This document shows, one piece after another, positions 4,701-64,000 of a DNA stretch of 64,000 nucleotides. The stretch lies in the NCBI RefSeq assembly GCF_009914755.1, contig NC_060946.1; one strand, written 5' to 3'. Position 1 is the stretch's first letter; every line of letters begins with the position of its first letter. The stretch is from the human T2T-CHM13v2.0 reference genome, Homo sapiens. The notes beneath the pieces were generated by a model. The model had not been told where the DNA came from and did not search any database. It was given only the letters and a program-made list of their open reading frames with translations. Made by a program: the position numbers and the translations under genes.

Positions 4701-4919
4701 TTGTCTAGGTTCAGCCTACTGGGGATTTCTGACATACCTATGCACTGATCACCCAGGTGATGTAAATCGTTTCCAGGCTTTTTTTACAGGGTACATTTTG
4801 ATATATCTCTGCAGTGATCACCCAAATGATGCAAATCTTCTCTAGGCTCCACAGGGAGGGGGCATTGTGACATATTTCTGAACTGATCATCCAGGAGATG
4901 TAACTATTCTCCAGTCTTT
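1730..4919 (-). repeat. Beta satellite (68-bp Sau3A) array 1
   Basis: ~68-bp monomers, reverse complement of GATCAGTGCAGAGATATGTCACAATGCCCCTGTAGGCAGAGCCTAGACAAGAGTTACATCACCTGGGT. Confidence 0.96.
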
Positions 4920-7699
<2,780 letters not shown>

Positions 7700-10600: not shown

Positions 10601-12179
10601 TGGGATTTGTCTACAGGGGGCTTTCTGACATATATTTGCACTGATCACCCAGGAGATTTAACACTTGTCTAGGCTCGGCCTACAGGGGCTTTGTGACATA
10701 TTTCTGCACTGATCACCCAGGTGATGTAACACTTGTCTAGGCTCCGCCTACAGGGGGTTGGTGACATATCTCTGCACTTATCACCCAGGTGATGTAACTC
10801 TTGTCTAGGCTCCACCTACAGGGGGTATTGTGACGTATCTCTGCACTGATCATCCAGGTGTTGTATCATTTATCTAGGCTCAGCCTACAGGGGCGTTTTG
10901 ACATAGCTCTGCACAGATCACCTAGGTTATGTAACTCTTGTCCACTCTCTGCCTACAGGGGGAATTGTGAAATATCTCTGCACTGATCACCCAGATGATG
11001 GGACTTTTCTCTCTACTCTGCCTAGAGGGGGATTTGTGACATACCTCTGCAGTGATCACCCAGGTGATGGAAGTCTTGTCTAGGCTCTGTCTTCAGGGAT
11101 TTTTGTGACATATCACTGCACTGGTCACCTAGGTGATGTAAGCCTTGTATGGGCTTTGCCTACAGAAGGCTTTGTGACATATATAAGCAGTGATCTCTGA
11201 GGTGATGCAACTCTTGTCTAGGCACTGCCTACAGGGGACATTTGTACATATCTCTGCACTGATCACCCAGGTGTGGACTCTTGTCTTAGATCTGTCTACA
11301 TGGACATTGTGACACATCTCTGAACTGATCAACCAAGTGATGAATCTCTTGTCTAGGCTCTGCCTACAGGGGCTTTGTGAAACATCTCTGCACTGATCAC
11401 CCTCAGGATGGAACTCTTGTCTTCGCTCTGCCTAGAGGAGGCTTTATGACTTATACCTGCCCTGAAAACCTAGTTGATGTAACACTTGTCTAGGATCTGC
11501 CTACACGGGAATTCTCACATATCTCTTCACTGATCACCCGGGTCATGTAACTCCTGTCTAGGTTCAGCGTACAGGAGCGTTTTGACATATCTCTGCACTG
11601 ATCACCCAAGTGATGTAACCCTTTTCTAAGCTCTGCCTACAGGGGCATTGTGACAGATCTCTCCACTGCTCACCCAGGTGATGTAACAATTGTCTGGGCT
11701 TTGCCTACAGGGGGCTTTGTGATATACATTTCCACTGATCAAACAGGTGATGTAACACTTGTCAAGGTTCTGCTTGCAGGGGTTTGTGACATATCTGTGC
11801 ACAGATCACCCCAGGGAGGAAACACTTGTCTACACTCTGCCTACAGGAGGCTTTACGACTTATCCCTGCACTGATCACTAGGTGATGTAACACTTGTCTA
11901 GGCTCTGTCTACATGGGAATTTTCACATATCTCTACACTGATCACCTAAGTGATGTAACACTTGTCTAGGTTCAGCCTACTGGGGATTTCTGACATACCT
12001 ATGCACTGATCACCGTGGTGATGTATATCATTTCCAGGCTTTTTGTACTGGGGACATTGTGATATATCTCTGAACTGATCACCCAAATGTTGCAAATCTT
12101 CTCTAGGCTCTGCAGGGAGGGGGCATTGTGACATATTTCTGAACTGATCATCCAGGAGATGTAACTATTCTGCAGGATT
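7700..12179 (-). repeat. Beta satellite array 2
   Basis: 68-bp monomers with the CTGCACTGATCACCCAGGTGATGTAAC core. Confidence 0.96.
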
Positions 12180-12877
12180 TGACTAAAGAGCGTCGGAAGG
12201 TGTTGGGAGAGCCTCACCCGGAATTTCCCGGACGGACAAGGGCACATAGAGGCCAGCTGGCTCCCTTGCACGTCAGCCGGGGTGCACAATGAGGGCAGGT
12301 CTAGCCAGCAGGCTGACAAAGAGAGCTAGAGGTCTGCGTTCCGCCGCCAGACGCTCCATGGTGGTAGCTGGGAGGCGGCAGGGGCTCAGGCGGGCCGGCG
12401 ATGGTGGCACAGAGATGCGCCGCCGGAGGGGTGTCAGGCCTGGACACTGCACGGGCCCGGTGTTTCTCGGGACAAGGGTCTCCACCCATCCCAGGGGAGG
12501 ACGCATTTTCCGGGGGGGAGGTGGGGGTGGGTAGGGGGTGGTCAGGCGGGGGTCGGGTGGTGGAAAGGCATGAGAGCTCTGCCCGGGCTGCTCCCACAGC
12601 CCAGGCGGCTGCCCGCAAACCCTCGCGTGCGCAGTAGGCGGCCCACCTGCTGGGACCTTGGCTGGTTCTGGGATCCCCGGGATGCCCCGGAAAGAATGGC
12701 AGTTCTCCGCTGTGTGGAGTCTCTCACCGGGCCAAGACCTAGAAGGCAGGAATCCCGGACCCATCAGCCGGTGGAGGGGGCGGGGGGAAGACACGCCCCT
12801 CCATAGCCATCCAGGTCTTCCCCGCGAAAGAGAGGTAACCGCCCTGCCCCGACCCAACGCCGTCCCAACCCCGCGCC

Positions 12878-14156
<1,279 letters not shown>

Positions 14157-15249
14157 TCAGCCGGCCTGTGCACTGCAGCGGGTGCAGCCACGAGGTCTGC
14201 CCGGACAGCCAGCCAGCTGTTCTTATAAAGGCCCGCAGGCAGGCAGGCTCCACAACTTCATGAATGGGGGTGAGCCCTGGGACAGCCCGCCCCACCCCAG
14301 AAGGGTCCCAGGGCGTTGAGGCCTGCGGTCGTGTTGTGGTGGTTTGGTGGGGAGGGCTTGGTGTCGGCGGTGGTGGGACCGGAGAAACGAAGAGGAAGGG
14401 TGTGAGGGGGAAGGGGTGAGGTGGGCACGTTTTGGAGGCTGTCTCTCCGGACCTCTCCAGGAATCCCCCGGGACCTGGAAACCGCTCTATTGTCTCCCAC
14501 GTTCTTCAGCAGGGAGAAACCGGCCTGGGAGGGTGGATGGGGAGTGTGGAACTGAAATTCCGTGGGAGTCTTGAGTGTTCCAGGCCCTCTCTCGGTGAAG
14601 GAGGCAGTGCCTGTGGGTGACGCCGTGGCCTGGACAGACTCACACACGCAGGCGTGTGGCTCTTGTTCATTTCCACGTAGGAGACCAGAGCAAGACCCCA
14701 GAGAGAAGATGCCTCCGCGGCGTGATGGCCTGACGATGAAGTCCCGTGTGCGGCAACATGGGGAGTCTGCAGTGTGGCCGGTTTGGAAACTGGAAGGAGA
14801 GCGAAGGCACCATGCCGGTCTTCCCCCCTTCTGGGTGCCCGCAGAGCTCCGGGAGCAAACAGTCAGCATGGCCAGCCTTTCGGGGCCCGGAGAGACGTGA
14901 GCAACAGTCCGCCTTGCAGAGGGGAATCCCACGCGGAAACCAAAATCACGCCTCCGTCGTTCCGAGTGTGGCTCCTCCATGGTCGGGGTTTTTGGCTTCA
15001 CACTCCATTGTGGGGCTCAGCCTGGGTATGTGCAGTCTGTGAATCATGCGGGTGAAAACCCGACGGCAACCCGAGTCCCGGTCTTTTGTCTCTGAGGAAA
15101 CCGCACATTCCCTGGACCACGGAATCGTGACGAATGTGTGCTCGCCGGCGGAGGAGGCGGATGTGGGCCAAGCCCTCAGCCCGCGCCGGACTCTTACCGT
15201 TTTCCCGGAGGGCGGGGGTCCCGTTCCTCCCGCAGGCCGAAGACCGATT

Positions 15250-15445
15250 TTCCTCTCTGCCTTCCTCCCTCTGTCCCCGGCTCCCTCCTGCCCACCCCCA
15301 GTCCCTGCTTAACTCTGTCTTTCCCTCCGTTCCTCCCCGCCTACCTCCCTCCCTCCCTCCCTGCCTGTTAATGTCCCTCCACCCATACTTCCTCCCCTCT
15401 AGGTCTCCCGTTCCTCTCTCCATCTCTGCCTGCCTTCCCTCCTGC
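15250..15445. repeat. Polypyrimidine/polypurine low-complexity tract (CCTC/CCTT-rich) in the D4Z4 inter-unit linker
   Basis: cttcctccct...cctccctccctccctccctgcc...ttcctctctccatctctgcc. Confidence 0.75.
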
Positions 15446-16042
15446 CTGGAACGCTCAAAGTCCCCGGTGTGCGCCGGGCCTGGGGTCTGCGTTCCGCCGC
15501 CAGGCGCTCCATGGTGGCAGCTGGGAGGATGCAGGGGTATGGGCGGGTGGGCGACGGTGGCAGGGAGGCACAGAGCAGGCGAGCCGCTGGAGGGTTGTCA
15601 GGCCTGTACGCTGTGCGGACCGTGTTTCGCGGAAAGGGGGTCTCCACCCAGCCGAGGGGAGGACGGATTTTCTGTGGGTGGTGGGCGAGTGTGGGGTGGG
15701 GGTGGTCAGGCGGTGGTGAGGTGGTGGAAAGGCATGAGAGCTCTGCCCGAGCTGCTCCCACAGCCCAGGCGGCTGCCCGCAAACCCGCACGGGCGCAGTA
15801 GGCGGCCCACCTGCTGGTACCTGGTCTGGCCATTTGATCCCTGGGATGCCCAGGAAAGAATGGCAGTTCTCCGCTGTGTAGATCCTCTCACCGGGCCTAG
15901 ACCTAGAAGGCAGGAATCCCAGGCTGGTCAGCCCGGTGGAGTGGCCAGTGGGAAAACACGCCCCTCCATAGCCAGCCATGTGTTCCCCGCGAAAGAGAGG
16001 CCACCGCCCTGCCCCGACCCAACCCCGTCCCAACCCTGCGTC

Positions 16043-17480
<1,438 letters not shown>

Positions 17481-18106
17481 TCATGAATGGCGGTGAGCCC
17501 TGGGACAGCCCGCCCCACCCCGGAAGGGTCCAAAGACATCGAGGCCTGCGGCCAAGGGGTGGTGGGTTGGGGGGGAGGGTGTGGTGATGGTGGTGGTGGG
17601 GCTGGAGAGACGAAGAGGAAGGGGGCGAGGAGGAAGGGGTGAGGGAGGCATGTTTCTGGGGCTGGCTCTCCAGACCTCTCCAGGAATCCCGCGGGAACTG
17701 GTAGCTGCTCTCTGGGCTCCCACGCGTCTTCAGCAGGGAGAGACCGGCATGGGGGGGTGGAGGGGAGTGTGGAACTGAACCTCCGTGGGAGTCTTGAGTG
17801 TTCCAGGCCCTCTCTCCGTGAAGGAGGCAGTGCCTGTGGGTGTCGCCGTTGCCGGAACAGTCGGACACATGCAGGCATGTGGCTCTCGTTCATTTCCACG
17901 TAGGCGACCAGAGCAAGACCCCAGAGAGAAGATGCCTCCCCTGCGTGATGGCCTGACGATGGATTCCCATGTGCAGCAACATGGGGAGTCTGCAGTGTGG
18001 CCGGTTTGGAAACTGGCCAGGAGAGTGAAGGCACCATGACGGTTTTCCACCCTTCCCTGCATGTTTCCGGGTGCCTGCAGATCTCCAGGAGTAAACAGTC
18101 AGCATG

Positions 18107-41500: not shown

Positions 41501-43429
41501 CTCTATGCTCTGCCTACAGGGGACATTGTGACATATCTCTGCACTGATCAGCCATGTGATGCAACTCTTCTCTATGCCCTGCCTACTGGGGGCATTGTGA
41601 CATATCTCTGCAAGGATCACGCAGGTGATGTAACTCTTTTCTAGTCTCTGCCTACAGAGGGCGTTGTGACATCACTCTGCACGGATCACCCGGGTTATGT
41701 AACTCTTATCTATGCTCTACCTATGGGGGCATTGTGACTTATCTCTGCACTGATCACCCAGGAAATGTGACTCTTGTCTAAGCTCTGCCTAGAAGGACAC
41801 TGGGACATATCTCTGCACTGATCACTGAGGTGATTTAAAACTTCTCTCGGCTTTGCCTACAGTGGGATTTATGACATATCTCTGCACTGATCACCCAGGT
41901 GATGTAACTCTTATCTACGCTCTGCTTACAGGGGATATTGTGAGATATCTCTGCACTGATCACCCAGGTGATGTAACTCTTGTCTAGGCTCTGCCTACAG
42001 GGTCATTTTAACATATCACTGCACTGATCACCGAGATGATGTAACTCTTGTATAGGCTTCGCCGACAGGGGACGTTCAGATATATGTCTGCACTGATCAC
42101 CGAGGTGATGCATCTCTTGTCTGGGATCTGCTTAAATGGGGCACTGGGACATATCTCTGCCCTGATCACCCAGGTGATGTAACTCTTGTCTGGGCTCTGC
42201 CTACTGGAGACATTGTGACATATCTCCACACTGATCACCCAGGTGAGGTCACTTTTGTCAAGGATATGGCTACAGGGACATTGTGATATATCACTGCACT
42301 GATCCCACAGCTGATTTAACCCTTGTCTAGGCTCTAGCTACAGGGGGTTTGTGACACATCTCTGCACTGATCACCCAGGTGATGTAACCCTTGTCTAGGC
42401 TCTGCCAAAATGGGCCATTGTGACGTAACTCTGCACTGATCACCCAGGTGATGGGACACTTGTCTAGGCTCTGCCTACAGGATCATTGTGACATATCTCT
42501 GCACTCATCACCCAGGTGATGGACTCTTCTCTTAGATCTGCCTACATGGTCATTGTGACACATCTCTAAACTGATCAACCAAGTGATGAAACTCTTGTCT
42601 AGGCTCTGCCTACAGGGGCTTTGTGACACATCTCTGCACTGATCACCCTGGGGAGGGAACTCTTGTCTACACTCTGCCTACAGGAGTCTTTATGACTTAT
42701 ACCTGCACTGATAACCTAGGTGATGTAACACTTGTCTAGGCTCTGCCTACACAGGAATTCTCACGTATCTCTGCACTGATCACCTGGGTGATGTAACTCC
42801 TGTCTAGGATCAGCCTACAGGAGCGTTTTGACATGTCTCTGCACTGATGACCCAGGTGATGTAACACTTGTCTAAGCTGTTCCTATAGAGGCATTGTGAC
42901 AGATCTCTCCACTGCTCACCCAGGTGATGTAACAATTTTCTGGGCTTTGCCTACAGGGGGCTTTGTGATATATACATTTCCACTGATCAAACAGGTGATG
43001 TAACCCTTGTCAAGGTTCTGCTTACAGGGGCTTTGTGACATTTCTCTGCACTGATCACCCCAGGTAGGAAACACTTGTCTACACTCTGCCTACAGGAGGC
43101 TTTACAACTTATCCCTGCACTGATCACTTGGTGATGTAACACTTGTCTGGGATCTGTCTACATGGGAATTTTCACAGATCTCTGCACTGATCACCTAAGT
43201 TATGTAACCCTTGTCTAGGTTCAGCCTACTGGGGATTTCTGACATACCTATGCACTGATCACCGAGGTGATGTAAATCATTTCCAGGCTTTTTGTACAGC
43301 GGACATTGTGATATATATCTTCACTGATCACCCAAATGATGCAAATCTTCTCTACGCTCCGCAGGGAGGGGGCATTGTGACATATTTCTGAACTGATCGT
43401 CAAGGAGATGTAAGTATTCTCCAGGCTTT
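35543..43429 (-). repeat. Beta satellite array 5 (longest, ~7.9 kb)
   Basis: 68-bp monomers. Confidence 0.96.
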
Positions 43430-43899
43430 GACTAAAGAGCTTCGCAAGGTGTTGGGAGAGCCTCAGCTAGAATTTCATGGATGGACAAGGGCACAGAGAG
43501 GCCAGTAGGCTCCCTTGCACGACAGCCGGGGTGCGCAATGCACGCAGATCTAGCCAGGAGGCCGGCAAAGAGAGCTAGAGGTCTGTGTTCCGCCGCCAGG
43601 CGCTCCATGGTGGCAGCTGGGAGGCTGCAGGGGCACCGGCGGGCCGTCGATGGTGGCACAGAGGCGCAGAGGAGGCGAGCCGCCAGAGGGTGGTCAGGCC
43701 TGGACGCTGTGCAGGCCCAGTGTTTTGCGGGATGGGGGTCTCCACCCAGCCCAGGGGAGGATGCATTTTCTGGTGGTTGGAGGTGGGGGTGGCGTGGGGG
43801 TGGTCAGGCGGGGGTGGGGTTGTGGAAAGACATGAGAGCTCTGCCCGGGCTACTCCCACAGCCCAGGCGGCTGACCGCAAACCCGCGGGTGTGCAGTAG
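43430..43899 (-). repeat. Truncated cassette: pLAM-like segment plus intron-2-like D4Z4 sequence, cut at the inversion junction
   Basis: Matches 4920-5390 of cassette B, then switches to plus-strand beta satellite. Confidence 0.9.
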
Positions 43900-45267
43900 C
43901 GAGATCTCTCACAATTCCCCTTTAGGCAGAGCTTATACAACAGTTACATCACCTGGGTGATCAGTGCAGAGATATGTCACAGTGCCCCCATAGACAGATC
44001 CAAGATAAGAGTCCGTCACCTGGGTGATCAGTGCAGAAATAGATCACAATGCCCCCTTAGGCAGAGCCTAGACAAAATCCCCATCACGTGGATGATCAGT
44101 GCAAAGTTATGTCACAAAGACCCTTTAGGCAGATCCTAGACAAGATTTATATCACTTGGATGATCAGTGCAGAGATATGTCACAATGTCACTGTAGGCAG
44201 AGCCTAGACAAGAGTTACATGACCTAGGTGATCAGTGCAGAGATACATCAAAATGTCCCTGGAGCAAGAGCCTTGACAAGTGGTACATCACCTGGGTGAT
44301 CATTGCAGGGATATGTCACAAAGCACCCTATAGGCAGATCCTAGAGAAGAGTTATATCACCTGGGTGATCAGTGCAGAGATATGTCACAAGAACCCTGTA
44401 GGTAGAGCCTAGACAAGAGTTATATCACCTGGGTGATCAGTGCAGTGATATGTCACAATGCCGTGTAGCCAGAGCGTAGACTAAATTTACAGCACATGGG
44501 AGATCAGTGCAGAGATATGTCACAATGTCCCCAGTAGGCAGAGACCACGCAAGAGTTGAATCACCTCCGGATCAGTGCAGAGATACTTCTCAATGCCCCT
44601 GTGGGCACCCCCAAGACAAGAGTTACATCACATCAGTTAACAGTGCAGAGATATGTCACAATGGCCCCATAGGCAAATGCAAGAGGAGAGTCCGTCACCT
44701 GGGTGATCAGTGCAGAAATATGTGACAATAACCCAAGTAGACGGAGCCTAGAGAAGAGTCCCATCACCTGGGTGATCCGTGCAGAGATATTTCACAATGC
44801 CCCTGCAGGCAGAGGGTATGCAAGAGTTACATCACCTAGATGATCAGTGCAGAGATATGTCACAAGGCCGCTATATGCAGAGCCTGGACAAGAGTTACAT
44901 CACCTCGGTGATCAATGCAGTGATATGTCACTATGCCCCGTAGGCAGAGCCTAGTCACGCGTTACATCACCTGGGTTAGCAGTGCAGAGATATGTCACAA
45001 AGCCCCCATACACAGAGCCTAGACAAGAGTCCCATCACCTGGGTGATCAGTGCAGAAATATGTCACAATGTCCCCATAGGCAGATCCAACACAAGTGTTA
45101 CATCACCTGGGTGATCAGTATAGAGATATGTCACAATGCCCCCATAGGCAGAGCCTAGACAAAAGTCCCATCACCTGGGTGGTCAGTGCAGAGATATGTC
45201 ACAAAGCCACTGTAGGCAGAGCTTAGACAAGTGTTACATCACTTTTTTGATTAGTTTAGAGATGTGT
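43900..45267 (+). repeat. Beta satellite array 6 (inverted relative to arrays 1-5)
   Basis: GTTACATCACCTGGGTGATCAGTGCAGAGATATGTCAC monomers on +. Confidence 0.96.
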
Positions 45268-45885
45268 CCTGCTGACTGTTTGCTCCCAGAGCTCTGTGGG
45301 CAGCCGGAAACATGCAGGGAATGGTGGAAGACCAGCATGGTGCCTTCGCTCTCCTTCCCAGTTTCCAAACCGGCCACACTGCAGACTCCCCATCTTGCCG
45401 CACACGGGAATCCATCATCAGGCCATCAGGCCAGGGAGACATCTTCTCTCTGGGGTATTGCTCTGGTATCCTACATGGAAATGAAGGAGAGCCACACGCC
45501 TGCGTGTGTGAGACTGTCCAGGCAATGGCGACACCCACAGTCACTGCCTCCTTCACGGAGAGAGGGCCTGGAACACTCCAGACTCCCACGGAGGTTCAGT
45601 TCCACACTCCCCTGCACCCTCCCAGGCCGGTTTCTCCCTGCTGAAGACGCGTGGGAGCCCAGAGAGCCTCTTCCCGTTCCCACGGTATGCCTGGAGAGGT
45701 CCGGAGAGCCAGCCCCGAAACGCGCCCACCTCACCCCTTCCCCCTCGTCCACTTCCTCTTCGTCTCTCCGGCCCCACCAGCACTATCACCACGTCCTCCC
45801 CCCCGACACCAACACCCCCCCCGGCCGCAGGCCTCGACGCCCTGGGATGCTTCCAGGGTGGGGCGGGCTGTCCCAGGGCTCACCA

Positions 45886-47332
<1,447 letters not shown>

Positions 47333-47340
47333 GACACTAG

Positions 47341-48075
47341 GTTGGGACGGGGTCGGGTCGGGGCAGGGCGGTGTCCTCTCTTTCGTGGGTAACACCTGAA
47401 TGGCTATGGAGGGGCTTGTCTTCCCCCAGCCCCCTCCACTGGGCTGACCAGCCTAGGATTCCTGCCTTCTAGGTCTAGGCCCGGTGAGAGGCTCCACACA
47501 GCAGAGAACAGTCATTCTTTCCTGGGCATCCCGGGGATCCCAGATCTGGCCCAGGTACCAGCAGGTGGGCCACCTACTGCCCACGCGCGGGTTTGCGGGA
47601 AGCCCCCTGGGCTGTGGGAGCAGCCAGGGTAGAGCTCTCATGCCTCTCCACTACCCCACCCCCACCTGACCACCCCTCCCCAACCCCACGCCCCCCAACC
47701 GGAGAAAGCATCCTCCCCTGGGCTGGGTGGAGACCCCCATCCCACGAAACACCAGGCCTGCATAGCATCCAGTCCTGACACCACTCTGGTGACTCGCCTC
47801 CTCTGCGCCTCTGCGCCACCATCGCCGGCCCGCCCGTGCCCCTGCAGCCTCTCAGCTGCAACCATGGAGGGCCTGGTGGTGGAACGCAGACCTCTAGCTC
47901 TCTTTGCCGGCCTCCTGGCTAGAACTACGCTCATTGCACACCCCGGCTGACGTGCAAGGGAGCCTGCTGGCCTCTCTGTTTCCTTGTCCCTCCGTGAAAT
48001 TCCGGCTGAGGCTCTCCCAACACCTTCCTACACTCTTTAGACAAAGCCTGGAGAATAGTTACATTTCCTGGATGA
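47341..48075 (+). other. DUX4-like 3' UTR splice architecture: intron 1 47341-47472, exon 2 47473-47564, intron 2 47565-47922, exon 3 (pLAM-like) from 47923
   Basis: GT at 47341, CTTCTAG ending 47472, CAG|GTGGG at 47565, CCTGGCTAG ending 47922; boundaries inferred from recalled DUX4 gene structure. Confidence 0.6.
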
Positions 48076-48077
48076 AA

Positions 48078-48109
48078 TGTATAAATAAAGCAATAGCACC
48101 TGGAATAAA
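48078..48109 (+). terminator. Candidate polyadenylation signal: TGTA plus two AATAAA
   Basis: TGTA 48078-48081; AATAAA 48084-48089 and 48104-48109, sense to copy G; function untested. Confidence 0.5.
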
Positions 48110-48123
48110 GCGATAGCACCTGG

Positions 48124-49370
48124 GAGATCAGTGCAGAGATATGTCACAATGTCCCCAGTGGGCAGAGACCAGGCAAGAGTTGGATCACCTCGGGATCAGT
48201 GCAGAGATATGCCTCAATCCCCCTGTGGGCACAGCCTAGACAAGAGTTACATCACCTCGGTTAACAGTGCAGATATATGTCAAAATGCCCCTGTAGGCAG
48301 AGCCTACAAAAGTGTTACATCACTTAAGTGATCAGTGTATAGATATGTCACAATACCCCCTGTGACCAGAGCCTAGACAAGAGTTACATCACGTAGGTGA
48401 TCAGTGCAGAGATATGTGACAAGGCCCCTTTAAGCAGAGCCTAGAAAATAGTTACATCACCTGAGTGATGAATGCAGAAATCTGTCACAATGCCCCTTTA
48501 GGCAGAGCTTAGACCAGAGTTGCAACACCTGGGTGACCATTGCAGAGAGATGTCACAATGCCCCCACAGGCAAATCCAAGACAAGAGTCCGTCTGCTGGG
48601 TGATCAGTTCAGAAATTTGTGAGAATGCCCCCAGTATTCAGAGCCTAGAGAAGAGTCCCTTCACCTGGGTCATCAGTGCAGAGATATTTCACGATGTCCC
48701 TGCAGGCAGAGTGTAAGCAAGAGTTACATCACCTAGATGATCAGTGCAGAGATATGTCACAAGGACCCCTATAGTCAGAGCCTGGACAAGAGTTACACCA
48801 CCTGGGTGATCAGTGCAGAGATATGTCACAATGCCACCATAGGCAGAGCCTAGACAATAGTTACATGACCTAGGTGATCAGTGCAGAGATACATCGCAAT
48901 GCCCCTGTAGGCAGAGCCTTGACAATTGGTATATCACCTGGGTGATCATTGCAGGGATATGTCACAAAGCACCCTGTAGTCAGATTCTAGAGAAGAGTTA
49001 TATCACCTCGGTGATCAATGCAGTGATATGTCACTATGCCCCGTAGGCAGAGCCTAGTCAAGCATTACATCACCTGGGTGATCAGTGCAGAGATATGTCA
49101 CAATGCCCCCATACACAGAGCCTAGACAACAGTCCCATCACCTGGGTGATCAGTGAAGAAATATGTCACAATGCCCCCATAGGCAGATCCAACACAAGAA
49201 TTACATCACCTGGGTGATCAGTGTAGAGATATGTCACAATGCCCTCATAGGCAGAGCCTAGAAAAAATTCCCACCACCTGGGTGATCAGTGCAGAGATAT
49301 GTCACAAAGCCCCTGTAGGCAGAGCCTAGACAAGAGTTACATCACTTTGTTGATCAGTTCAGAGATGTGT
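48124..49370 (+). repeat. Beta satellite array 7 (short, proximal part deleted)
   Basis: 68-bp monomers; lacks the pLAM-adjacent monomer series found in other arrays. Confidence 0.95.
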
Positions 49371-52145
<2,775 letters not shown>

Positions 52146-54100
52146 CAAAGCCTGGGGAATAGTTACATCTCCTGGATGATCAGTTTAGAAGTATGTCACA
52201 ATGCCCCCACCCTGCGGAGCCTAGAGAAGATTTGCATCATTTGGGTGATCAGTGCAGAGATACATCACAGGGTCCCCTGTACAAAAAGCCTGGAAATGAT
52301 TTACATCACCTCGGTGATCAGTGCATAGGTATGTCAGAAATCCCCAGTAGGCTGAAACTAGACAAGGGTTACATCATTTAGGTGATCAGTGTAGAGATAT
52401 GTGAAAATTCCAGTGTAGACGGTGCCTAGACAAGCATTACATCACCTAGTGATCAGTGCAGGGATAAGTCGTAAAGCCTCCCTTAGGCAGAGTGTAGACA
52501 AGTGTTTCCTACCTGGGGTGATCAGTGCAGAGTTATGTCACAAAGCCCCTGTAAGCAGAACCTTGACAAGGGTTACATCACCTGTTTGATCAGTGGAAAT
52601 CTATATCACAAAGCCTCCTGTAGCAAAGCCCAGAATATTGTTACATCACCTGTTTGATCAGTGGAATTGTATATCACAAAGCCCCTTGTAGGCAAAGCCC
52701 AGACAATTGTTACATTACCTGGGTGAGCAGTGGAGAGATCTGTCACAATGCCCCTGTAGGCAGAGCTTAGACAAGGTTTTCATCACCTGGGTGATCAGTG
52801 CAGTGATATGTCAAAATGCTCCTGTAGGCTGAACCTAGAAAGGAGTTACATCACCCGGGTGATCAGTGCAGAGATATGTGGGAATTCCCGTATAGGCAGA
52901 GCCTGGACAAGTGTTACATCACCTAGGTTATCAGTGCAGATATAAGTCATAAAGCCTCATGTAGGCAGAGCGTAGACAAGAGTTCCCTCCCCAGGGTGAT
53001 CAGTGCAGAGATGTGTCACAAAGCCCCTGTAGGCAGAGCCTAGACAAGAGTTTCTTCACTTGGATGATCAGTTCAGAGATGTGTCACAACATCCATGTAG
53101 GCAGATCTAAGACAAGGGTCCATCACCTGGGTGATCAGTGCAGAGACATGTACCAATGTCCCCTGTATGCGGTGCCTAGATAAGAGTTGCATCACCTCAG
53201 AGATCAGTGCATAGATATCTCACAAACCCTTCTGTAGGCAAAGCCTGTACAAGGCTTACATCACCTAGGTGATCAGTGCAGTGATATGTCACACAAAACC
53301 CTGTAGACAGAGCCTAGAGAAGAGTTACATCACCTGGGTGTTCAGTGCAGATATTTGACACAATGCCCCCATAGACAGAGCCTAGAGAAGACTTCCATCT
53401 CCTCGGTGATCAGTGCAGAGATATTTCACAAATCCCTCCCTAGGCAGAGTATAGAGAAGAGTCCCATCACCTGGGTGATCAGTGCAGAGATGATTCACAA
53501 TGCCCCCTGTAGGTAGAGAGTGGACAAGAGTTACATAACCTAGGTGATCTGTGCAGAGTTGTGTCAAAACGCCCCTGTAGGCAGAGCCTTGATAAATGTT
53601 ACATCACCTGGGTGATCAGTGAAGAGATACGTCACAATAACCCCTGTAGATGCAGCCTAGACAAGAGTTACATCACCTGGGTGATCAATGCAGAGATATG
53701 TCACAAAGCACCTGTAGGCAGAGTCTAAACAAGTGTTACATCACCTGGTTGATCAGTGCAGAAATATGTCACAATGCTCCTGTAGGCCGAGCCTAGACAA
53801 GAGTTACGTCTCCTGGTTGATCAGTGCAAAGATATGTCACAAAGCACACTGTAGACAAATTCCAGAAAATTGTTACATCACCTGGGTGATCAGTGGAGAT
53901 ATCTGTCACAATTCCCCTTTAGGTGCAGCTTAGACAAGCGTTACATCACATAAGTGATCAGTGCAGAGATATGTCACTATGCCCCCATAGGCAGATCCAA
54001 GACAAGAGTCCATCACCTGGGTGATCAGTGCAGAAATATGCCACAATGCCACAAGTAGGCAGATATAGACAACAGTTACATCACCTGCGTGATCACTGCA
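52146..54100 (+). repeat. Beta satellite array 8
   Basis: 68-bp monomers. Confidence 0.96.
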
Positions 54101-54130
54101 AGATGCACTGCAGGATTACTGCAGGATGCA

Positions 54131-54292
54131 CTGCTGCTGGATGAGCTCCTGGCGAGCCTGGTGTTTCTGCATCAGGTGCAACCTTTCCTAGAAATGGAGG
54201 ACCCAGGGGAGCTAGAGTCCTTGGAAGAGGCCGCCTCGCTGGAAGAACCCCTCAGTGAGGAAGAATACCGGGATCTGCTGGAGGAGCTTTAG
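54131..54292 (+). pseudogene. DUX4L: DUX4-like fragment I: C-terminal activation domain only
   Basis: [53 protein letters not shown]; upstream sequence is beta satellite plus filler. Confidence 0.9.
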
Positions 54293-54995
54293 GACGCGGG
54301 GTTGTGACGGTTTCAGGTCGGTGCAGGGCGGTGGCCTCTCTTTCGCGGGGAACACCTAGCTGTCTATGGTGGAGCGTGTCTACCCCCGCCCCCTCCACTG
54401 CGATGACCGGCCTGGGATTCCTGCCTTCTAGTTCTAGGCGCGGTGAGAGACTCCACACAGCGGTGAACTGCCATTCTTTCCTGTGCATCCCGGGGATCCC
54501 AGAGCTGGCCCAGGTACCAGCAGGTGGGCTGACTACTGCGCACGTGCGGGTTTGCGGGCAGCCGCCTGGGCTGTGGGAGCAGCCCGGGTAGAGCTCTCCT
54601 GCCTTTCCTCCACCCCACCACCGACTGAGCACACCATCCCCACCCTCACAGCCCCACCCCCGGAAAATACGTCCTTCCCTGGGCTGGGTGGAGAACCCCA
54701 TCCTGCGAAACACGGGGCCAGCGCAGCATCCAGGCCTGACACCCCTCCGGTGGCTCACCTCCTCTGCCCCTCTGTGCCACCGTCGCCAGTGCCCCTGCAG
54801 CTTCCCAGCTGCCACCATGGAGCGCCTGGCGGCGGAACGCAGACCTCTAGCTCTCTTTGCCAGCCTCCTGGCTAGAACTGCGCACATTGCGCACCCCGGC
54901 TGATGTGCAAGGGAGCCCGTTGGCCTCTCTGTGCCCTTGACCATCCCGGAAATTCCAGCTGAGGCTCTCCCAACAACTTCCAACGCTCTTTAGTC
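54131..54995 (+). repeat. 5'-truncated D4Z4-like cassette I with pLAM-like end
   Basis: KpnI site near 54513; pLAM-like segment ~54850-54995. Confidence 0.9.
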
Positions 54996-57900
54996 AAAGC
55001 CTGGAGAATAGTTACATCTCCTGGATGATCAGTTCAGAAATATGTCACAATGCCCCCACCCTGCGGAGCCTAGAGAAGATTTGCATCATTTGGGTGATCA
55101 GTGTAGAGATATACCACAATGTCCCCTGTACAAAAAGCCTGGAAATGATTTACATCACCTCGGTGATCAGTGTGTAGGTATGTCAGAAATCCCAAGTAGG
55201 CTGAACCTAGACAAGAGTTGAATCACTTAGGTGATCAGTGTAGAGATTTGTGAAAATTCCAGTGTAGACAGAGCCTAGACAGGTGTTACAACACCTAGTG
55301 ATCAGTGCAGGGATAAGTCGTAAAGCCTCCTGTAGGCAGAGTGTAGACCATTGTTTCCTTGCTAGTGTGATCAGTGCAGAGATATGTCACATAGACCCTG
55401 TAAGCAGAACCTTGACAAGGGTTACATCACCTGTTTGATCAGTGGAAATGTATATCACAAAGCCCCCTGTAGCAAAGCCCGTACAATTGTTACATCACCT
55501 GTGTGAGCAGAGGAGAGATCTGTCACAATGCCCCTGTAGGCAGAGCTTAGACAAGGGTTACATCACTTGGGTGATCAGTGCAGAGATATGTCAAAAGGCC
55601 CCTGTAGGCTGATCCTAGAGAGGAGTTACATCACCGGGGTGATCAGTGCAGAGATATGTGAGAATTCCCTTCTAGGCAGAGCCTAGACAAGTGTTACATC
55701 ACCTAGGTTATCAGTGAAGGTATAAGTCGTAAAGCCTCCTGTAGGCAGAGCGTAGACAAGAGTTCCCTCCCCAGGGTGATCAGTGCAGAGATGTGTCACA
55801 AAGCCCCAGTAGGCAGAGCCTGGACAAGAGTTTCATCACTTGGTTGATGAGCTCAGAGATGTGTTACAATATCCATGTAGGCAGATCTAAGACAAGAGTC
55901 CATCACCTGGGTGATCAGTGCAGAGATATGTACCGAAGTCCCCTGTAGGCAGTGCCTAGACAAGAGTTGCATCACCTCAGAGATCACTGCATAGATATGT
56001 CACAAAGCCTTCTGTAGGCAAAGCCCATAAAATGCTTACATCACCTAGCTGATCAGTGCAGTAATTTGTCACAAAAATCCCTGTAGACAGAGCCTAGAAA
56101 AGAGTTACATCTCCTGGGTGATCAGTGCAGATATTTGACACAATGCCCCCATAGACAGAGCATAGACAAAACTTCCATCACCTGGGTGATCAGTGCAGAG
56201 ATATGTCAGAAATCCCCCTCTAGGCAGAGTATAGAGAAGAGTCACATCACCTTGGTGATCAGGGCAGTGATATTTCACAATGCCCCTGTAGGCAGAGAGT
56301 GGACAAGAGTTACATAATCAGGTGATCTGTGCAGAGTTATGTCAAAACGCCCCTGTAAGCAGAGCCTAGATAAATGTTACATCACCTGGGTGATCAGTGC
56401 AGTGATACGTCACAATAACCCCTGTAGGCGGAGCCTAGACAAGAGTTACATCACCTGGGTGATCAATGCAGAGATATGTCACAAAGCCCCTGCAGGCAGA
56501 GCCTAGACAAGAGTTACATCACCTGGGTGATCAATGCAGAAATATGTCACAAAGCCCCTGTAGGCCGAGTCTAGAAAATAGTTACATCTCCTGGGTGATC
56601 AGTGCAAAGATATGTCACAAAGCCCCCTGTAGACAAACACCAGAAAATTGTTACATCACCTGGGTGATCAGTGGAGACAACTGTCACATTTCCCCTTTAG
56701 GTGCAGCTTAGACAAGGGTTACATCACATGAGTGATCAGTGCAGAGATATGTCACTATGCCCCCATAGGCAGATCCAAGACAAGAGTCCATCACCTGAGT
56801 GATCAATGGAGAAATATGCCACCATGCCGCCAGTAGGCAGATATAGAGAAGAGTTACATCACCTGCGTGAACACTGCAGAAGTATGTCACAATGCCCCTG
56901 CAGGCAGAGCCTAGACAACAGTCCCATCACCTGGGTGATCAGTGCAGAATTATGTCACAATGCCCCCTTTTGGCAGAGCCTAGACAAGGGTTACATCACA
57001 TGGGTGATCTGTGCAGAGATGTGTCACAAGCCCCCTGTAGCCAGAGCCTAGACAAGAGTTACATCAGGTGTGTGATCAGTGCAGTGACATGTCACAATGC
57101 CCCTGTAGACATATCCTTGACAAAAGTGACATCACCTGGGTGATCAGTGTGGAGATATGTCACAATGTCTCCAGTAGGCAGAGCCTAGAAAAGAGTTACA
57201 TCACCTGGTTGATCAGGGCAGAGACATGTCACAATGCCCCCCATAAGCAGATCCCAGAAAGAGTTGCATCACCGCGGTGATCAGTGCAGAGATATGTCTC
57301 AATGCCCCCTGTCGGCGAAGCCTATACAACAGTTACATCATTTCAGTGATCAGTGCAGTGATATGTGAAAATGCCCCTGTAGGCAGAGCCTAGACAAGAG
57401 TTACATCACCTGGGTGATCAGTGCAGAGATATCTCACAATACGCCCTGTAAGCAGAGCCCAGACAAGAGTAACATCACCTGGGTGATCAGTGCAGAGATA
57501 TATAATAAATCCCACTGTAGGCAAAGCCTAGACAAGTTTTACATCACCTCAGAGATCAGTGCAGAGATATGTCCCAATATCCCTCTAGGCAGAGCTTAGA
57601 CAAGAGTCACATCTCCTGGGTGATCAGTGCGGAAATAAGTCACAATGTCCCCGTAGGCAGAGCCTAGACAAGAGTTACATAACCCAGGTGATCTATGCAG
57701 AGTGATGCCACAACGCCCTCTGTAGGCAGAGACTAGAAAAGAGTTACATCACCTGGGTGATCAGTGAAGAGATATGTCACAATGCCCCCTGTAGGCAGAG
57801 CATAGAGAAGAGATGCATCACCTGGGTGATCAATGCAGAGATATGTCACAATGTCCCCTGAAGGCAGAGCATAGAGAAGAGTTGCATCACCTCGGTGATC

Positions 57901-60227
57901 AGTGCAGAGATATGTCACAATGTCCCCTGCAGGCAAAGACTAGGCAAGAGTTACATCACCTTTGTCATCAGTTCAGGGATGTGTGAAAACGCCCCTGTAG
58001 GCAGAGTCTAGACAAGAGTTACATCACGTAGTTGATCAGTGCAGAGGTATTTCACAATAACCCCTGTAGGCAGATCCTCGAGAAGAGTTGAATCACCTGG
58101 GTGATCAGAGCAGAGATATTTCACAATGCCCCCTTTGGGCAGAAGGTAGACAAGAGTTACATCACCTAGGTGATCAGTGCAGAGATTTGTCAAAATTTCC
58201 TGTAGGCAGTGCTTATAAAAGTGTTACATCACCTAAGTGATCAGTGCAGAGATATGTCACAAAGCTCCTGTAGGCTTAAATTAGATGAGTTACATCACCT
58301 GGGTGATGATTGCAATGGTATGTCACAAAGCTCCCCGTAGGCAAAGCCTAGATAATAGTTATGTCACTTGGGGGATCAGTGGCGAGATCTCTCACAATTC
58401 CCCTGTAGGCAGAGCTTATACAACAGTTACATCACCTGGGTGATCAGTGCAGAGATATGTCACATTGCCCCCATAGGCAGACCCAAGACAAGTGTCCGTC
58501 ACCTGGGTGATCAGTGCAGAAATATGTCACAATGCCCCCTTAGGCAGAGCCTAGACAAAAGCACCATCACCTGGATGATCAGTGCAGAGTTATGTCAGAA
58601 AGTCCCTTTAGGCAGATCCTAGACAAGTGTTACATCACTTGGATGATCAGTGCAGAGATATGTCACAATGCCACTGTAGGCAGAGCCTAGACAACAGTTA
58701 CATGACCTAGGTGATCAGTGCAGAGATACATCGCAATGTCCCTGTAGGCAGAGCCTTGACAAGTGGTACATCACCTGGGTGATCATTGCAGGGATATGTC
58801 ACAAAGCACCCTGTAGTCAGATCCTAGAAAATAGTTACATCACCTGGGTGATCAGTGCAGATATATGTCACAAGGCCACTGTAGGCAGAGGCTAAACAAG
58901 AGTCACATGACCTAGGTGATCAGAGTAGAGATACATCACAATGCCCATGTAGGCAGAGCCTTGACAAGTGGTATATCACCTGGGTGATCATTGCAGGGAT
59001 ATGTCACAAAGTACCACGTAGGCAGATCCTAGAGAAGAGTTACATCACCTGGGTGATCAGTGCAGATATGTCAAAAGCCCCCTGTAGGCAGAGACTAGAC
59101 AAGAGCTATATCACCTGGGTGATCAGTGCAGTGATATGTCACAATGCCATGTAGCCAGAGCCTAGACTAAAGTTACTGTACCTGGGAGATCATTGCAGAG
59201 ATATGTCACAATGTCCCCAGTAGGCAGAGACAAGGCAAGAGTTGGATCACCTTGGGATCAGTGCAGAGATATGTCTCAATCCCATAGTGGGCACAGCCTA
59301 GACTAGAGTTACATCACCTCGGTTAACAGTGGAGAGATATGTCAAGATGCCCCTGTAGGCAGAGCCTACACAAGTGTTACATCACTCAGGTGATCAGTGC
59401 AGAAATATGTCACAATATCCCCTGTAAGCAGAGCCTAGACAAGAGTTACAACTCCTGGGTGATCAGTGCAGAGATATGTGACAAGGCCCCTTTAAGCAGA
59501 GCCTAGACAGTAGTTACATCACCTGAGTGATCAGTGCAGAGATCTGTCACAATGCCCCTTTAGGCAGAGCTTAGAGCAGAGTTACATCACCTGTGTGATC
59601 AGTGCAGAGATATCTCACAATGCCTCTATAGGCATATCAAATAAAAGATACCTTCACCTGGTTGATCAGTGCAGAATTATGTGACAATGCCCCCAGTAGG
59701 CAGAGCCTAGAGAAGAGACACATCACCTGGGCGATCAGTGCAGAGATATTTCACACTGCCCCTGCAGGCAGAGCATAAGCAAGAGTTACATCACCTAGAA
59801 GATCAGTGCAGAGATATGTCACAAGGCCCCCTATAGGCAGAGCCTGGACAAGAGTTACATCACCTCCGTGATCAATACAGTGATATGTCACTATGCCCCA
59901 TATGTAGAGCCTAGTCAAGCGTTACATCACCTGGGTGATCAGTGCAGCGATATGTCACAAAGCCCCCATACACAGAGCCTAGACAAAAGTCCCATCACCT
60001 GGATGATCAGTGCAGAAATATGTCACAATGCCCCCATAGGCAGATCCAACACAAGAGTTACATCACCTGGGTAGTCATTGTAGAGATATATCACAATGCC
60101 CCCGTAGTCATATCCTAGACAAAAGTCCGATCACCTGGGTGATCAGTGCAGAGATATGTCACAAAGCCCCTGTAGGCAGAGCATAGACAAGCGTTACATG
60201 ACTTTGTTGATCCGTTCAGAGATGTTT
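54996..60227 (+). repeat. Beta satellite array 9
   Basis: 68-bp monomers. Confidence 0.96.
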
Positions 60228-62998
<2,771 letters not shown>

Positions 62999-64000
62999 AA
63001 ACCTGGAGAATAGTTACATCTCCTGGATGATCACTTCAGAAATATGTCACAATGCCCCCTCCTTGCGGAGCCTAGAGAAGATTTGCATCATTAGGGTGAT
63101 CAGTGCAGAGATATATCACAATGTCCCCTGTACAAAAAGCCTGGAAATGATTTACATCACCTCGGTGATCAGTGCATAGGTATGTCAGAAATCCCCAGTA
63201 GGCTGACCCTAGACAAGGGTTACATCACTTAGGGGATCAGTGTAGAGATATGTGAAAATTCCCGTGTAGACAGAGCCTAGACAAGAGTTCCATCACCTAG
63301 TGATCAGTGCAGGGATAAGTTGTAAAGCTTCCTGTAGGCAGAGAGTAGACAAGAGTTTCCTCCCTGGGGTGATCAGAGTAGAGATATGTCACAAAGCCCC
63401 AGTAAGGAGAATCTTGACAAGGGTTACATCACCTGTTCGATCAGTGGAAATGTATATCACAAAGCCCCCTGTAGGCAAATCCCAGAAAATTGTTACATCA
63501 CCTGGGTGAGCAGTGGAGAGATCTGTCACAATGCCCCTGTAGGCAGAGCTTAGACAAGGGTTACATCACCTGGGTGATCAGTGCAGAGACATGTCAAAAC
63601 GCTCCTGTAGGCTGAACCTAGACAGAATTTACATCACCTGGGTGATCAGTGCAGAGATATGTGAGAATTCCAGTGTAGGCAGAGTCTAGACAAGTGTTAC
63701 ATCACCTAGGTTATCAGAGCAGGTATAAGTAATAAAGCCTCCTTTAGGAAGAGCGTAGACAAGAGTTCCCTCACCAGGGTGATCAATGCAGAGCTGTGTC
63801 ACAAAGCCCCCGTAGGCAGAGCCTAGACAAGAGTTTCATCACTTGGTTGATCAGTTCAGAGATGTGTCACAACGTCCATGTAGGCAGATCTAAGATAAGA
63901 TTCCATCACTTGGGCGATCAGCCCAGAGATATGTACCAATGTCCCCTGTAGGCAGTGCCTAGACAAGAGTTGCATCACCTCAGAGATCAGTGCATAGATA
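62999..64000 (+). repeat. Beta satellite array 10 (runs off the window)
   Basis: 68-bp monomers. Confidence 0.96.

What the first reader, a model, noticed from the sequence alone, without database searches (positions are those of the whole stretch)
48071..48123. New double AATAAA at the pLAM/exon-3 poly(A) position of one DUX4L cassette
Seen: the other cassettes continue ...CCTGGATGATC(A/G)(G/C)TT(C/T)AGAA(A/G)TATGTCACAATG. This one reads CCTGGATGA-AATGTATA-[AATAAAGCAATAGCACCTGG][AATAAAGCGATAGCACCTGG]-GAGATCAG, a 20-bp tandem duplication (one mismatch) giving two canonical hexamers preceded by TGTA. It then resumes in a beta-satellite monomer that normally lies far from pLAM (compare ~44491-44550), so the junction is a deletion with filler. 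Known: the 4qA ATTAAA in pLAM stabilises DUX4 mRNA in FSHD, and UGUA binds CFIm. Inference: an independent gain of a poly(A) signal within ~10 nt of the 4qA-equivalent site. Caveat: the deletion removed the U-rich monomer that normally follows, so a downstream element may be weak.
Basis: partly seen in the sequence, partly recalled or inferred. Interest (0 to 1): 0.9.

Follow-up and report, generated by a model that had tools for sequence, protein, structure and literature searches.

The report
Doubled AATAAA after DUX4-like pseudogene
One decayed chromosome-22 copy of the muscular-dystrophy gene DUX4 has gained two textbook end-of-message signals where the disease-causing copy has its own, but an early stop codon cuts its coding sequence short, so it is a curiosity to check against published transcripts, not a new disease gene.

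Summary
At window 48084-48123 there is a 20-bp tandem duplication (19/20 identical) carrying two AATAAA. It lies 8 nt after the CCTGGATGA that ends the exon-3-like part of a D4Z4/DUX4-like cassette. The junction is unique in CHM13. Of 206 copies of the pLAM-type end motif, only 4qA and this copy have A[AT]TAAA within 45 nt.

The AATAAA 20-mer is not new filler. It is an old beta-satellite variant found, as a single copy, before the same monomer on chr1, 13, 14, 15, 21 and elsewhere on chr22. In this unit a ~3.8-kb internal deletion brought it next to exon 3, and a 20-bp duplication doubled it.

The DUX4-like ORF upstream has no frameshift but has a stop at codon 145, inside homeodomain 2. It shows CpG decay and near-neutral dN/dS. 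The U-rich downstream region used at 4qA was deleted.

The window has no annotated gene, and use of the site could not be tested here. A 2026 survey of CHM13 already reports poly(A) signals at non-4q D4Z4-like loci, including chr22 p11. A 2023 study found DUX4-like mRNAs from pericentromeric chr22 arrays by 3'RACE. Interest is modest.

The parts
45270..48075 (+). D4Z4-like (LSAU) cassette of one LSAU-beta-satellite composite unit. It is colinear with chr4 L033 244-3104 at about 85% identity.
45926..45930 (+). TATAA where the 4q DUX4 promoter has TACAA. 8 of the 9 window cassettes share it, so it is not special to this copy.
46064..46498 (+). Open part of the DUX4-like ORF: ATG at 46064, 144 codons, in-frame stop at 46496-46498. 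It encodes homeodomain 1 and homeodomain 2 cut at Pfam profile position 50 of 57.
46499..47332 (+). Remainder of the DUX4-homologous reading frame (codons 146-424 equivalent). It has no frameshift and ends at the parental stop position 47330-47332. dN/dS against chr4 is 0.93.
47473..47554 (+). Exon-2-like segment (82 nt, the same length as L033 2499-2580), with the acceptor AG and the donor GT kept. The exon borders are recalled from the published DUX4 gene structure and come from no call.
48041..48075 (+). Exon-3-like start after the retained acceptor (TTTAG at 48036-48040), up to the CCTGGATGA (48067-48075) where homology to pLAM stops.
48076..48083 (+). Junction bases AATGTATA, containing TGTA at 48078-48081. 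GTATA may still be homologous to the GCATAG that precedes the 20-mer in paralogues, which would leave about 3 nt unexplained.
48084..48103 (+). First copy of the 20-bp unit, with AATAAA at 48084-48089. It is identical to the single-copy 20-mer of the paralogues.
48104..48123 (+). Second copy of the 20-bp unit, with AATAAA at 48104-48109. It has one difference (G at 48112). It is the copy that is in place relative to the following monomer.
48124..49372 (+). Remaining beta-satellite of the unit. It corresponds to L033 about 6923-8000 and is 92.4% identical and colinear with the chr13/14/15 paralogues. The next D4Z4-like cassette follows.

Best explanation
This is a rearranged unit of the LSAU-beta-satellite composite repeat on the chr22 short arm, proximal to the rDNA.

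The normal unit (~7.75 kb) is a 2.86-kb D4Z4-like cassette, a pLAM-like end, and ~4.9 kb of beta-satellite colinear with the 4qA distal satellite. In this unit a ~3.8-kb non-homologous deletion runs from just after CCTGGATGA in the first pLAM monomer to a point ~1.3 kb before the next cassette. At that point an old monomer-boundary variant already read AATAAAGCAATAGCACCTGG. A later or simultaneous 20-bp tandem duplication doubled it.

Shown: this places two canonical AAUAAA hexamers 43 and 63 nt into an exon-3-like segment whose splice signals are kept.

Inferred: if the cassette is transcribed, these would be the first hexamers met on the + strand, and cleavage would be expected roughly 10-30 nt after 48109. 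Efficiency would be limited by a U-poor downstream region.

Shown: the upstream gene is a pseudogene with a stop at codon 145.

Inferred: the most it can yield is a 144-residue fragment (homeodomain 1 plus a cut homeodomain 2) from an mRNA with two downstream introns, which should be a target of nonsense-mediated decay.

Most likely the hexamers are a by-product of satellite rearrangement in methylated heterochromatin, with little or no consequence.
For: Structure:
- The tile map shows the window's units colinear with chr4 L033 242->3104->~8000, and the focal unit jumping from 3104 to 6923 (alignments).
- The 20-mer pre-exists. There are 7 exact places in D4Z4/beta-satellite regions (the focal pair counted once) plus one on 9q with unrelated flanks, and 5 further matches with one mismatch. 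In the 5 of these paralogous places whose flanks were read (chr1, 13, 14, 15, 21), it is single-copy and followed by the same monomer.
- The post-junction block is 92.4% identical to the chr13/14/15 copies, but 82-85% to the other units in the window and 83.6% to the chr22:6122154 copy. The variant therefore spans diverged subfamilies.
- The duplication is confirmed by TRF.

Pseudogene status:
- There is one in-frame stop at codon 145. The parent has an Arg codon containing a CpG.
- dN/dS is 0.75 overall and 0.93 after the stop.
- 47 of 116 ORF differences are of the CpG-transition type.
- CpG observed/expected is 0.49 against 0.73 for chr4, the lowest of the 7 cassettes measured.
- Homeodomain 2 is cut at Pfam profile position 50 of 57.

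Context and hexamers:
- No gene is annotated between chr22 5.86 and 6.25 Mb.
- The downstream region is U-poor.
- Hexamers turn up sporadically in plain beta-satellite monomers, for example at chr21:6330047 and at window 57504, 59640 and 63731.

Literature (passages read):
- DUX4-like genes outside the 4q/10q arrays carry disruptive changes (PMC13199055).
Against: - AAUAAA is the strongest single determinant of a mammalian poly(A) site (general knowledge). It is stronger than the AUUAAA of 4qA, and here there are two copies with an upstream UGUA and several CA dinucleotides 8-38 nt downstream.
- The promoter region, the ATG and the exon-2/3 splice signals are kept.
- The ORF has no frameshift, and this copy has the fewest stops of the window's cassettes.
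- 3'RACE has found DUX4-like mRNAs from D4Z4-like arrays in pericentromeric chr22 in cancer cell lines (PMC10578318, section 8). Acrocentric 3.3-kb repeats have long been reported as transcribed (PMC12376486 passages). Silence therefore cannot be assumed.
- Methylation, transcription and read support at this locus were not testable here.
Confidence: 0.7

Rival explanations
1. The pair of AAUAAA hexamers is a working poly(A) site. When the chr22 array is derepressed (germline, cleavage embryo, SMCHD1/DNMT3B deficiency, some cancers), this copy gives a spliced, stable, polyadenylated DUX4-like mRNA. That mRNA would encode a 144-residue double-homeodomain fragment, or act as a non-coding RNA.
For: - This is the only one of 205 non-4q motif-bearing copies with a hexamer at exon 3.
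- No earlier AATAAA or ATTAAA lies on the + strand between the promoter and 48084.
- The splice signals and promoter are kept.
- There is a UGUA upstream and CA sites downstream.
- 3'RACE-positive DUX4-like mRNAs from pericentromeric chr22 arrays have been reported (PMC10578318, section 8).
Against: - The downstream region is U-poor, and the beta-satellite stretch that follows pLAM is deleted. PMC5983732 passages place elements critical for DUX4 3' processing in the beta-satellite downstream of the 4qA signal; their exact position was not seen.
- An early stop with two downstream introns predicts nonsense-mediated decay (inference).
- CpG decay points to long-term methylation.
- No transcript is annotated here.
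- In the 2023 study an N-terminal DUX4 antibody gave no robust signal in the lines expressing the chr22-type RNAs.
Confidence: 0.22
2. The hexamers were created de novo at the junction as filler during repair of the deletion.
For: - The junction is unique.
- Compared with the chr4 monomer or the other window monomers, the 20-mer differs at about 6 of 22 positions. Taken alone, that looks like non-homologous filler.
Against: Exact copies of the 20-mer sit at the homologous monomer boundary on chr1, 13, 14, 15, 21 and 22. They fall in two subfamilies that are only about 84% alike.
Confidence: 0.05
3. The junction and the duplication are a local assembly error in a difficult acrocentric repeat.
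For: - The junction occurs once in the assembly.
- Reads could not be consulted.
Against: - The two 20-mers differ at one base.
- Both flanks are well-behaved, diverged, locus-specific sequence: 85-92% identical to their nearest paralogues. A collapse between near-identical repeats is therefore unlikely (inference).
Confidence: 0.03

Closest known systems
4qA pLAM poly(A) signal of DUX4 (ATTAAA in exon 3)
   Same: - Same place in the homologous cassette: the hexamers start 9 and 29 nt after CCTGGATGA, against 16 nt at 4qA.
- The exon-2 and exon-3 splice signals upstream are kept.
- Beta-satellite follows.
   Different: - The hexamer is the canonical AATAAA, present twice, and comes from a different monomer.
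- At 4qA, ATTAAA replaces the GTCACA of the first monomer.
- The U/GU-rich stretch and ~3.8 kb of following satellite are deleted.
- The ORF is truncated at codon 145.
- The location is an internal unit on the chr22 short arm, not the end of a subtelomeric array.
LSAU-BETA composite repeat of T2T-CHM13 (bioRxiv 10.1101/2021.07.12.451456, passage read)
   Same: - D4Z4/LSAU plus beta-satellite units arrayed on acrocentric arms.
- Identity within the array here is 82-85%. This fits the 80-95% reported for arrays in centromere transition regions.
   Different: This unit is 4.1 kb instead of ~7.75 kb because of the internal deletion.
Non-4q D4Z4-like loci with poly(A) signals in T2T-CHM13 (PMC12963445; Table 1 and results section 9 read)
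   Same: - That survey reports putative poly(A) signals at chr14 and chr22 loci, including 2 of 28 units in a chr22 p11 beta-satellite array.
- It also reports a chr22 locus encoding a truncated protein with both homeodomains, resembling DUX4-s, at 85.3% identity. The focal 144-residue fragment is 122/144 identical, or 84.7%.
   Different: I cannot tell whether this copy is one of theirs.
- The text I read mentions neither the deletion origin nor the doubled AATAAA.
DUX4-s, and DUX1-type short double-homeodomain products of dispersed 3.3-kb repeats (PMC12376486 passages)
   Same: An N-terminal product with the homeodomains but no C-terminal activation domain.
   Different: - Here homeodomain 2 is itself cut at Pfam profile position 50 of 57.
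- No RNA or protein evidence is available for this copy.
DUX4-like mRNAs from pericentromeric chr22 D4Z4-like arrays found by 3'RACE in cancer cell lines (PMC10578318, section 8 read whole)
   Same: - Same chromosome region class.
- Transcripts that do not encode full-length DUX4 because of stops or frameshifts.
   Different: The mapped loci and 3' ends are given only in a supplementary table that I could not see. No link to this copy is shown.

Membership tests
Mammalian cleavage/polyadenylation site | A[A/U]UAAA hexamer | tested here: met
   AATAAA at 48084 and 48104.
Mammalian cleavage/polyadenylation site | U- or GU-rich downstream element after the cleavage site | tested here: inconclusive
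   From +11 to +60 after the second hexamer: T 18%, longest T run 1, 9 GT/TG dinucleotides. The 4qA values are 34%, 4 and 12. This is a crude composition measure, not a trained predictor.
Mammalian cleavage/polyadenylation site | Upstream UGUA (CFIm) and a CA cleavage dinucleotide 10-30 nt downstream | tested here: met
   One TGTA lies 6 nt before hexamer 1 and 26 nt before hexamer 2. CA dinucleotides lie at +8, +20 and +25 after hexamer 2.
Mammalian cleavage/polyadenylation site | Observed RNA 3' ends with untemplated poly(A) | not testable with these tools
   Reads and expression data are off. The window has no annotated transcript (finding header).
Permissive 4qA-type DUX4 unit | Intact full-length DUX4 ORF (two homeodomains plus the C-terminal activation domain) | tested here: not met
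   In-frame stop at codon 145. Homeodomain 2 is cut.
Permissive 4qA-type DUX4 unit | pLAM with exon 2, intron 2, the exon-3 acceptor and a poly(A) hexamer in exon 3 | tested here: met
   Alignment to chr4. The hexamers lie 43 and 63 nt into the exon-3-like segment. The exon borders themselves are recalled, not taken from a call.
Permissive 4qA-type DUX4 unit | Beta-satellite sequence directly downstream that supports 3' processing (distal auxiliary element) | tested here: not met
   The ~3.8 kb that follows pLAM in the 4qA-type unit is deleted. The requirement itself is taken from PMC5983732 passages.
LSAU-BETA composite (D4Z4-like plus beta-satellite) | D4Z4-like cassette joined to 68-bp beta-satellite, in arrayed units | tested here: met
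   TRF 68-bp arrays, DUX4 homology and colinearity with the chr4 template.

The most novel reading that the evidence does not exclude
In CHM13 this is the only non-4q copy with the pLAM-type end motif that has canonical poly(A) hexamers in its exon-3-like segment. It could therefore be the main source of the stable, polyadenylated DUX4-like mRNAs reported from pericentromeric chr22 arrays. It would then give a short homeodomain protein or RNA that competes with DUX4 or is mistaken for it in assays. It would also be a natural example of a satellite rearrangement making a silent retrogene copy 'permissive'.
Probability: 0.08. Interest if true: 0.55.

Novelty: new member of a known kind. Interest (0 to 1): 0.3.

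Why it matters
FSHD genetics rests on the idea that a poly(A) signal after the last D4Z4 unit decides whether DUX4 mRNA survives. A second copy with an even better hexamer at the same place is a natural test of how much the hexamer alone achieves, because it lacks the following satellite and sits in acrocentric heterochromatin.

In practice it is also a candidate source of off-target 'DUX4' signals in oligo-dT-primed assays. Because the ORF is cut at codon 145, it cannot make full-length DUX4 protein, so it has no obvious disease role.

The origin of the signal is a small but clear example of how satellite rearrangement can place processing signals: an old satellite variant was moved by a deletion and then duplicated.

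Tried and rejected
- **Filler origin.** I first read the 20-mer as repair filler or a strongly mutated monomer. A genome-wide search rejected this by finding exact paralogous copies.
- **Looser 4qA-type search.** A search for the 4qA-type ATTAAA context at up to 2 mismatches gave 808 matches against 320 for the reversed control. It was mostly noise and only the first 100 places are listed. It did show ATTAAA in an ordinary beta-satellite monomer on chr21 but could not list the chr22 two-mismatch places.
- **Array survey.** I wanted to survey the whole chr22 array around the window, count its units and see which ones the 2026 survey may have flagged.
- **Link to the 2026 survey.** I could not decide whether the focal copy is that survey's 'chromosome 22 locus 1'. 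The identities are 84.7% here and 85.3% there, and the coordinates are in closed supplements.
- **Bacterial-type scan.** The promoter/terminator scan does not apply to human DNA and is ignored.
- **TATAA box.** The TATAA in place of the 4q TACAA looked interesting but is shared by 8 of 9 window cassettes.
- **Selection.** dN/dS below 1 for codons 1-144 (0.5) is not evidence of selection on this copy, because the comparison includes the constrained chr4 lineage.
- **Print search.** The 20-mer was not found in the paper library (0 papers). A four-term search returned 5 papers, 4 listed. Of those 4, I read passages of PMC12963445, PMC12776069 and PMC10578318; the fourth (PMC13558733) I saw only as a search listing.

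Full report
**What is there**

The window lies on the chr22 short arm, about 0.3 Mb to the centromere side of the last rDNA unit. No gene is annotated between 5.86 and 6.25 Mb.

It consists of 68-bp beta-satellite arrays interrupted by about nine D4Z4-like cassettes with DUX4 homology. Those before ~43.4 kb are on the - strand and those after are on the + strand.

Tiling the + strand half against the chr4 4qA end of the same assembly (L033) shows a composite repeat. A 2.86-kb D4Z4-like part (L033 242-3104) runs into a pLAM-like end and then ~4.9 kb of beta-satellite. That satellite is colinear, monomer by monomer, with the 4qA distal satellite (L033 3104 to ~8000). Then the next D4Z4-like part begins. 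This is the LSAU-BETA composite described for T2T-CHM13 (bioRxiv 10.1101/2021.07.12.451456, passage read).

**The observation**

- TRF calls 48084-48123 a 20-bp repeat with 2.0 copies and 95% matches.
- The junction 42-mer and a 29-mer are unique in CHM13 at up to 3 mismatches (closed regions are not shown).
- I aligned 39 pLAM-type ends: 9 in the window, 29 loci on chr1, 13, 14, 15, 21 and 22, and chr4. HSPs that did not reach the query end were dropped. Only chr4 4qA and the focal copy have A[AT]TAAA within 90 nt after CCTGGATGA. The other 37 read ...ATATGTCACAATG... at the 4qA position.
- Genome-wide, 206 exact copies of AGTTACATNTCCTGGATGA exist, and only those same 2 are followed within 45 nt by AWTAAA.
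- The 4qA ATTAAA starts 16 nt after CCTGGATGA. The focal hexamers start 9 and 29 nt after it.
- AATAAA is rare in the window: 5 on the + strand, two of them this pair, and 2 on the - strand.

**Where the hexamers came from**

After the junction the sequence matches L033 6901-7301 at 94%. About 3.8 kb of the unit's satellite is therefore missing.

Against chr4 and the other window units, the 20-mer looks diverged, differing at about 6 of 22 positions. A genome-wide search then found the exact 20-mer AATAAAGCAATAGCACCTGG at chr1:128480611, chr13:9744143, chr14:3219174, chr15:5099577, chr21:6122306 and chr22:6122154. It also found five one-mismatch versions in the same kinds of region, and one hit on 9q whose flanks are unrelated.

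In each of the five D4Z4/beta-satellite copies whose flanks were read (chr1, 13, 14, 15, 21) it is single-copy. It sits at the same monomer boundary and is followed by the same GAGATCAG... monomer.

The focal block 48104-49600, including the start of the next cassette, compares as follows:
- 92.4% identical and colinear with the chr13/14/15 copies;
- 82-85% identical to the other window units;
- 83.6% identical to the chr22:6122154 copy.

The AATAAA variant is therefore old and shared by diverged subfamilies. What is specific to this unit is three things:
- the deletion that put the variant next to the exon-3-like segment;
- 3-8 nt at the joint (AAT, possibly up to AATGTATA);
- the 20-bp duplication, whose second copy carries one difference.

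**The gene upstream**

The cassette is about 85% identical to 4q D4Z4.
- The DUX4-homologous frame (46064-47329) aligns over all 424 codons without a frameshift at 82% amino-acid identity. It has an in-frame stop at codon 145.
- The parent has an arginine codon containing a CpG at that position. One other window cassette has the same stop.
- The open 144 residues contain homeodomain 1 and homeodomain 2 cut at Pfam profile position 50 of 57.
- dN/dS against chr4 is 0.75 overall, 0.93 after the stop and 0.5 before it. The comparison includes the constrained chr4 lineage.
- 47 of 116 ORF differences are of the CpG-transition type.
- CpG observed/expected is 0.49 against 0.73 for chr4, the lowest of the 7 cassettes measured.

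These are the marks of a long-methylated pseudogene.

The processing signals, however, are kept. The exon-2 acceptor and donor and the exon-3 acceptor align with those of chr4, whereas two neighbouring cassettes have lost one or two of them. The exon borders themselves are recalled from the published DUX4 gene structure and come from no call. The promoter region is alignable. It carries TATAA where 4q has TACAA, a state shared by 8 of 9 window cassettes.

**Would the site work?**

For:
- Two canonical hexamers, with a UGUA 6 and 26 nt upstream and CA dinucleotides 8-25 nt after the second hexamer.
- No earlier AATAAA or ATTAAA on the + strand of the cassette.

Against:
- The U-rich stretch that follows the 4qA signal is gone. 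From +11 to +60, T is 18% and the longest T run is 1, against 34% and 4 at 4qA.
- So is the satellite that follows pLAM. [quoted passage not shown]
- An mRNA with a stop at codon 145 and two downstream introns should be a target of nonsense-mediated decay (inference from general knowledge).

**What is already known**

- A 2026 survey of T2T-CHM13 (PMC12963445; abstract, methods passage, Table 1 and results section 9 read) lists putative poly(A) signals at D4Z4-like loci on chr14 and chr22, including 2 of 28 units of a chr22 p11 array. It describes a chr22 locus encoding a truncated protein that resembles DUX4-s, at 85.3% identity. The focal fragment is 122/144 identical, or 84.7%. The survey also states that no non-4q/10q locus has been shown to give stable polyadenylated full-length DUX4 mRNA.
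- A 2023 study found, by 3'RACE, DUX4-like mRNAs mapping to D4Z4-like arrays in pericentromeric chr22 in cancer cell lines. None encoded full-length DUX4 (PMC10578318, section 8 read whole). The mapped places are in a supplementary table I could not see.
- Another 2026 paper reports that DUX4-like genes outside the 4q/10q arrays carry disruptive changes (PMC13199055, passage).
- A review recalls that acrocentric 3.3-kb repeats are transcribed and that DUX1 is a short double-homeodomain product (PMC12376486, passages).
- The 20-mer itself was not found in the paper library.

**Verdict**

The hexamers are real, unique in their position and plausibly usable. They are, however, an inherited satellite variant moved by a deletion and then duplicated. 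They follow a truncated pseudogene and have lost the downstream context.

My best reading, at 0.7, is a by-product of satellite rearrangement with little or no consequence. A working site in derepressed cells remains possible (about 0.2) and could be checked against existing 3'RACE and long-read data.

This is a new member of a known kind. Interest is 0.3.

Noticed in passing
window 43397-43900: The orientation of the array switches here. A - strand pLAM-type end lies at 43397, with ~0.4 kb of - strand D4Z4-like sequence. From ~43837 onward there is + strand beta-satellite matching L033 6108 onward. This looks like an inversion breakpoint inside the array.
   Followed up: partly
window 54037-55028: A truncated unit. 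The beta-satellite (up to L033 ~4961) jumps back to the last ~0.9 kb of a D4Z4-like cassette (L033 2193-3104) with its own pLAM-type end, and then a full satellite block follows.
   Followed up: partly
window 12167-18104: A double-length cassette (5.9 kb) with two DUX4-homologous stretches on the - strand and no beta-satellite between them.
   Followed up: no
window 45926-45930 and the other cassettes: 8 of 9 window cassettes read TATAA where the 4q DUX4 promoter has TACAA. Several also lack 8 bp just after it.
   Followed up: partly
window 61398-61517: A second cassette has the same stop at the codon-145 position (a CpG site in the parent). A third, at 13599-13718, has a glutamine codon there. 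This is recurrent or shared decay at one CpG.
   Followed up: no
window 63731 (also 57504, 59640): Other + strand AATAAA hexamers lie inside ordinary beta-satellite. The one at 63731 is only ~0.7 kb downstream of the pLAM-type end at 63030 of the last + strand cassette.
   Followed up: no
window 52161-60223 compared with L033 3104-8000: The satellite part of the composite is closer to 4qA (mostly 88-96% per 204-bp tile) than the GC-rich D4Z4-like part (mostly 78-92%). This fits faster CpG decay in the GC-rich part.
   Followed up: partly
L050, L051, L052 (chr13:9742643-9745662, chr14:3217674-3220693, chr15:5098077-5101096): These three loci on different acrocentric chromosomes score nearly the same against the focal block (92.3-92.4%) and read alike in the 320 bases shown. 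This suggests recent exchange between short arms.
   Followed up: no
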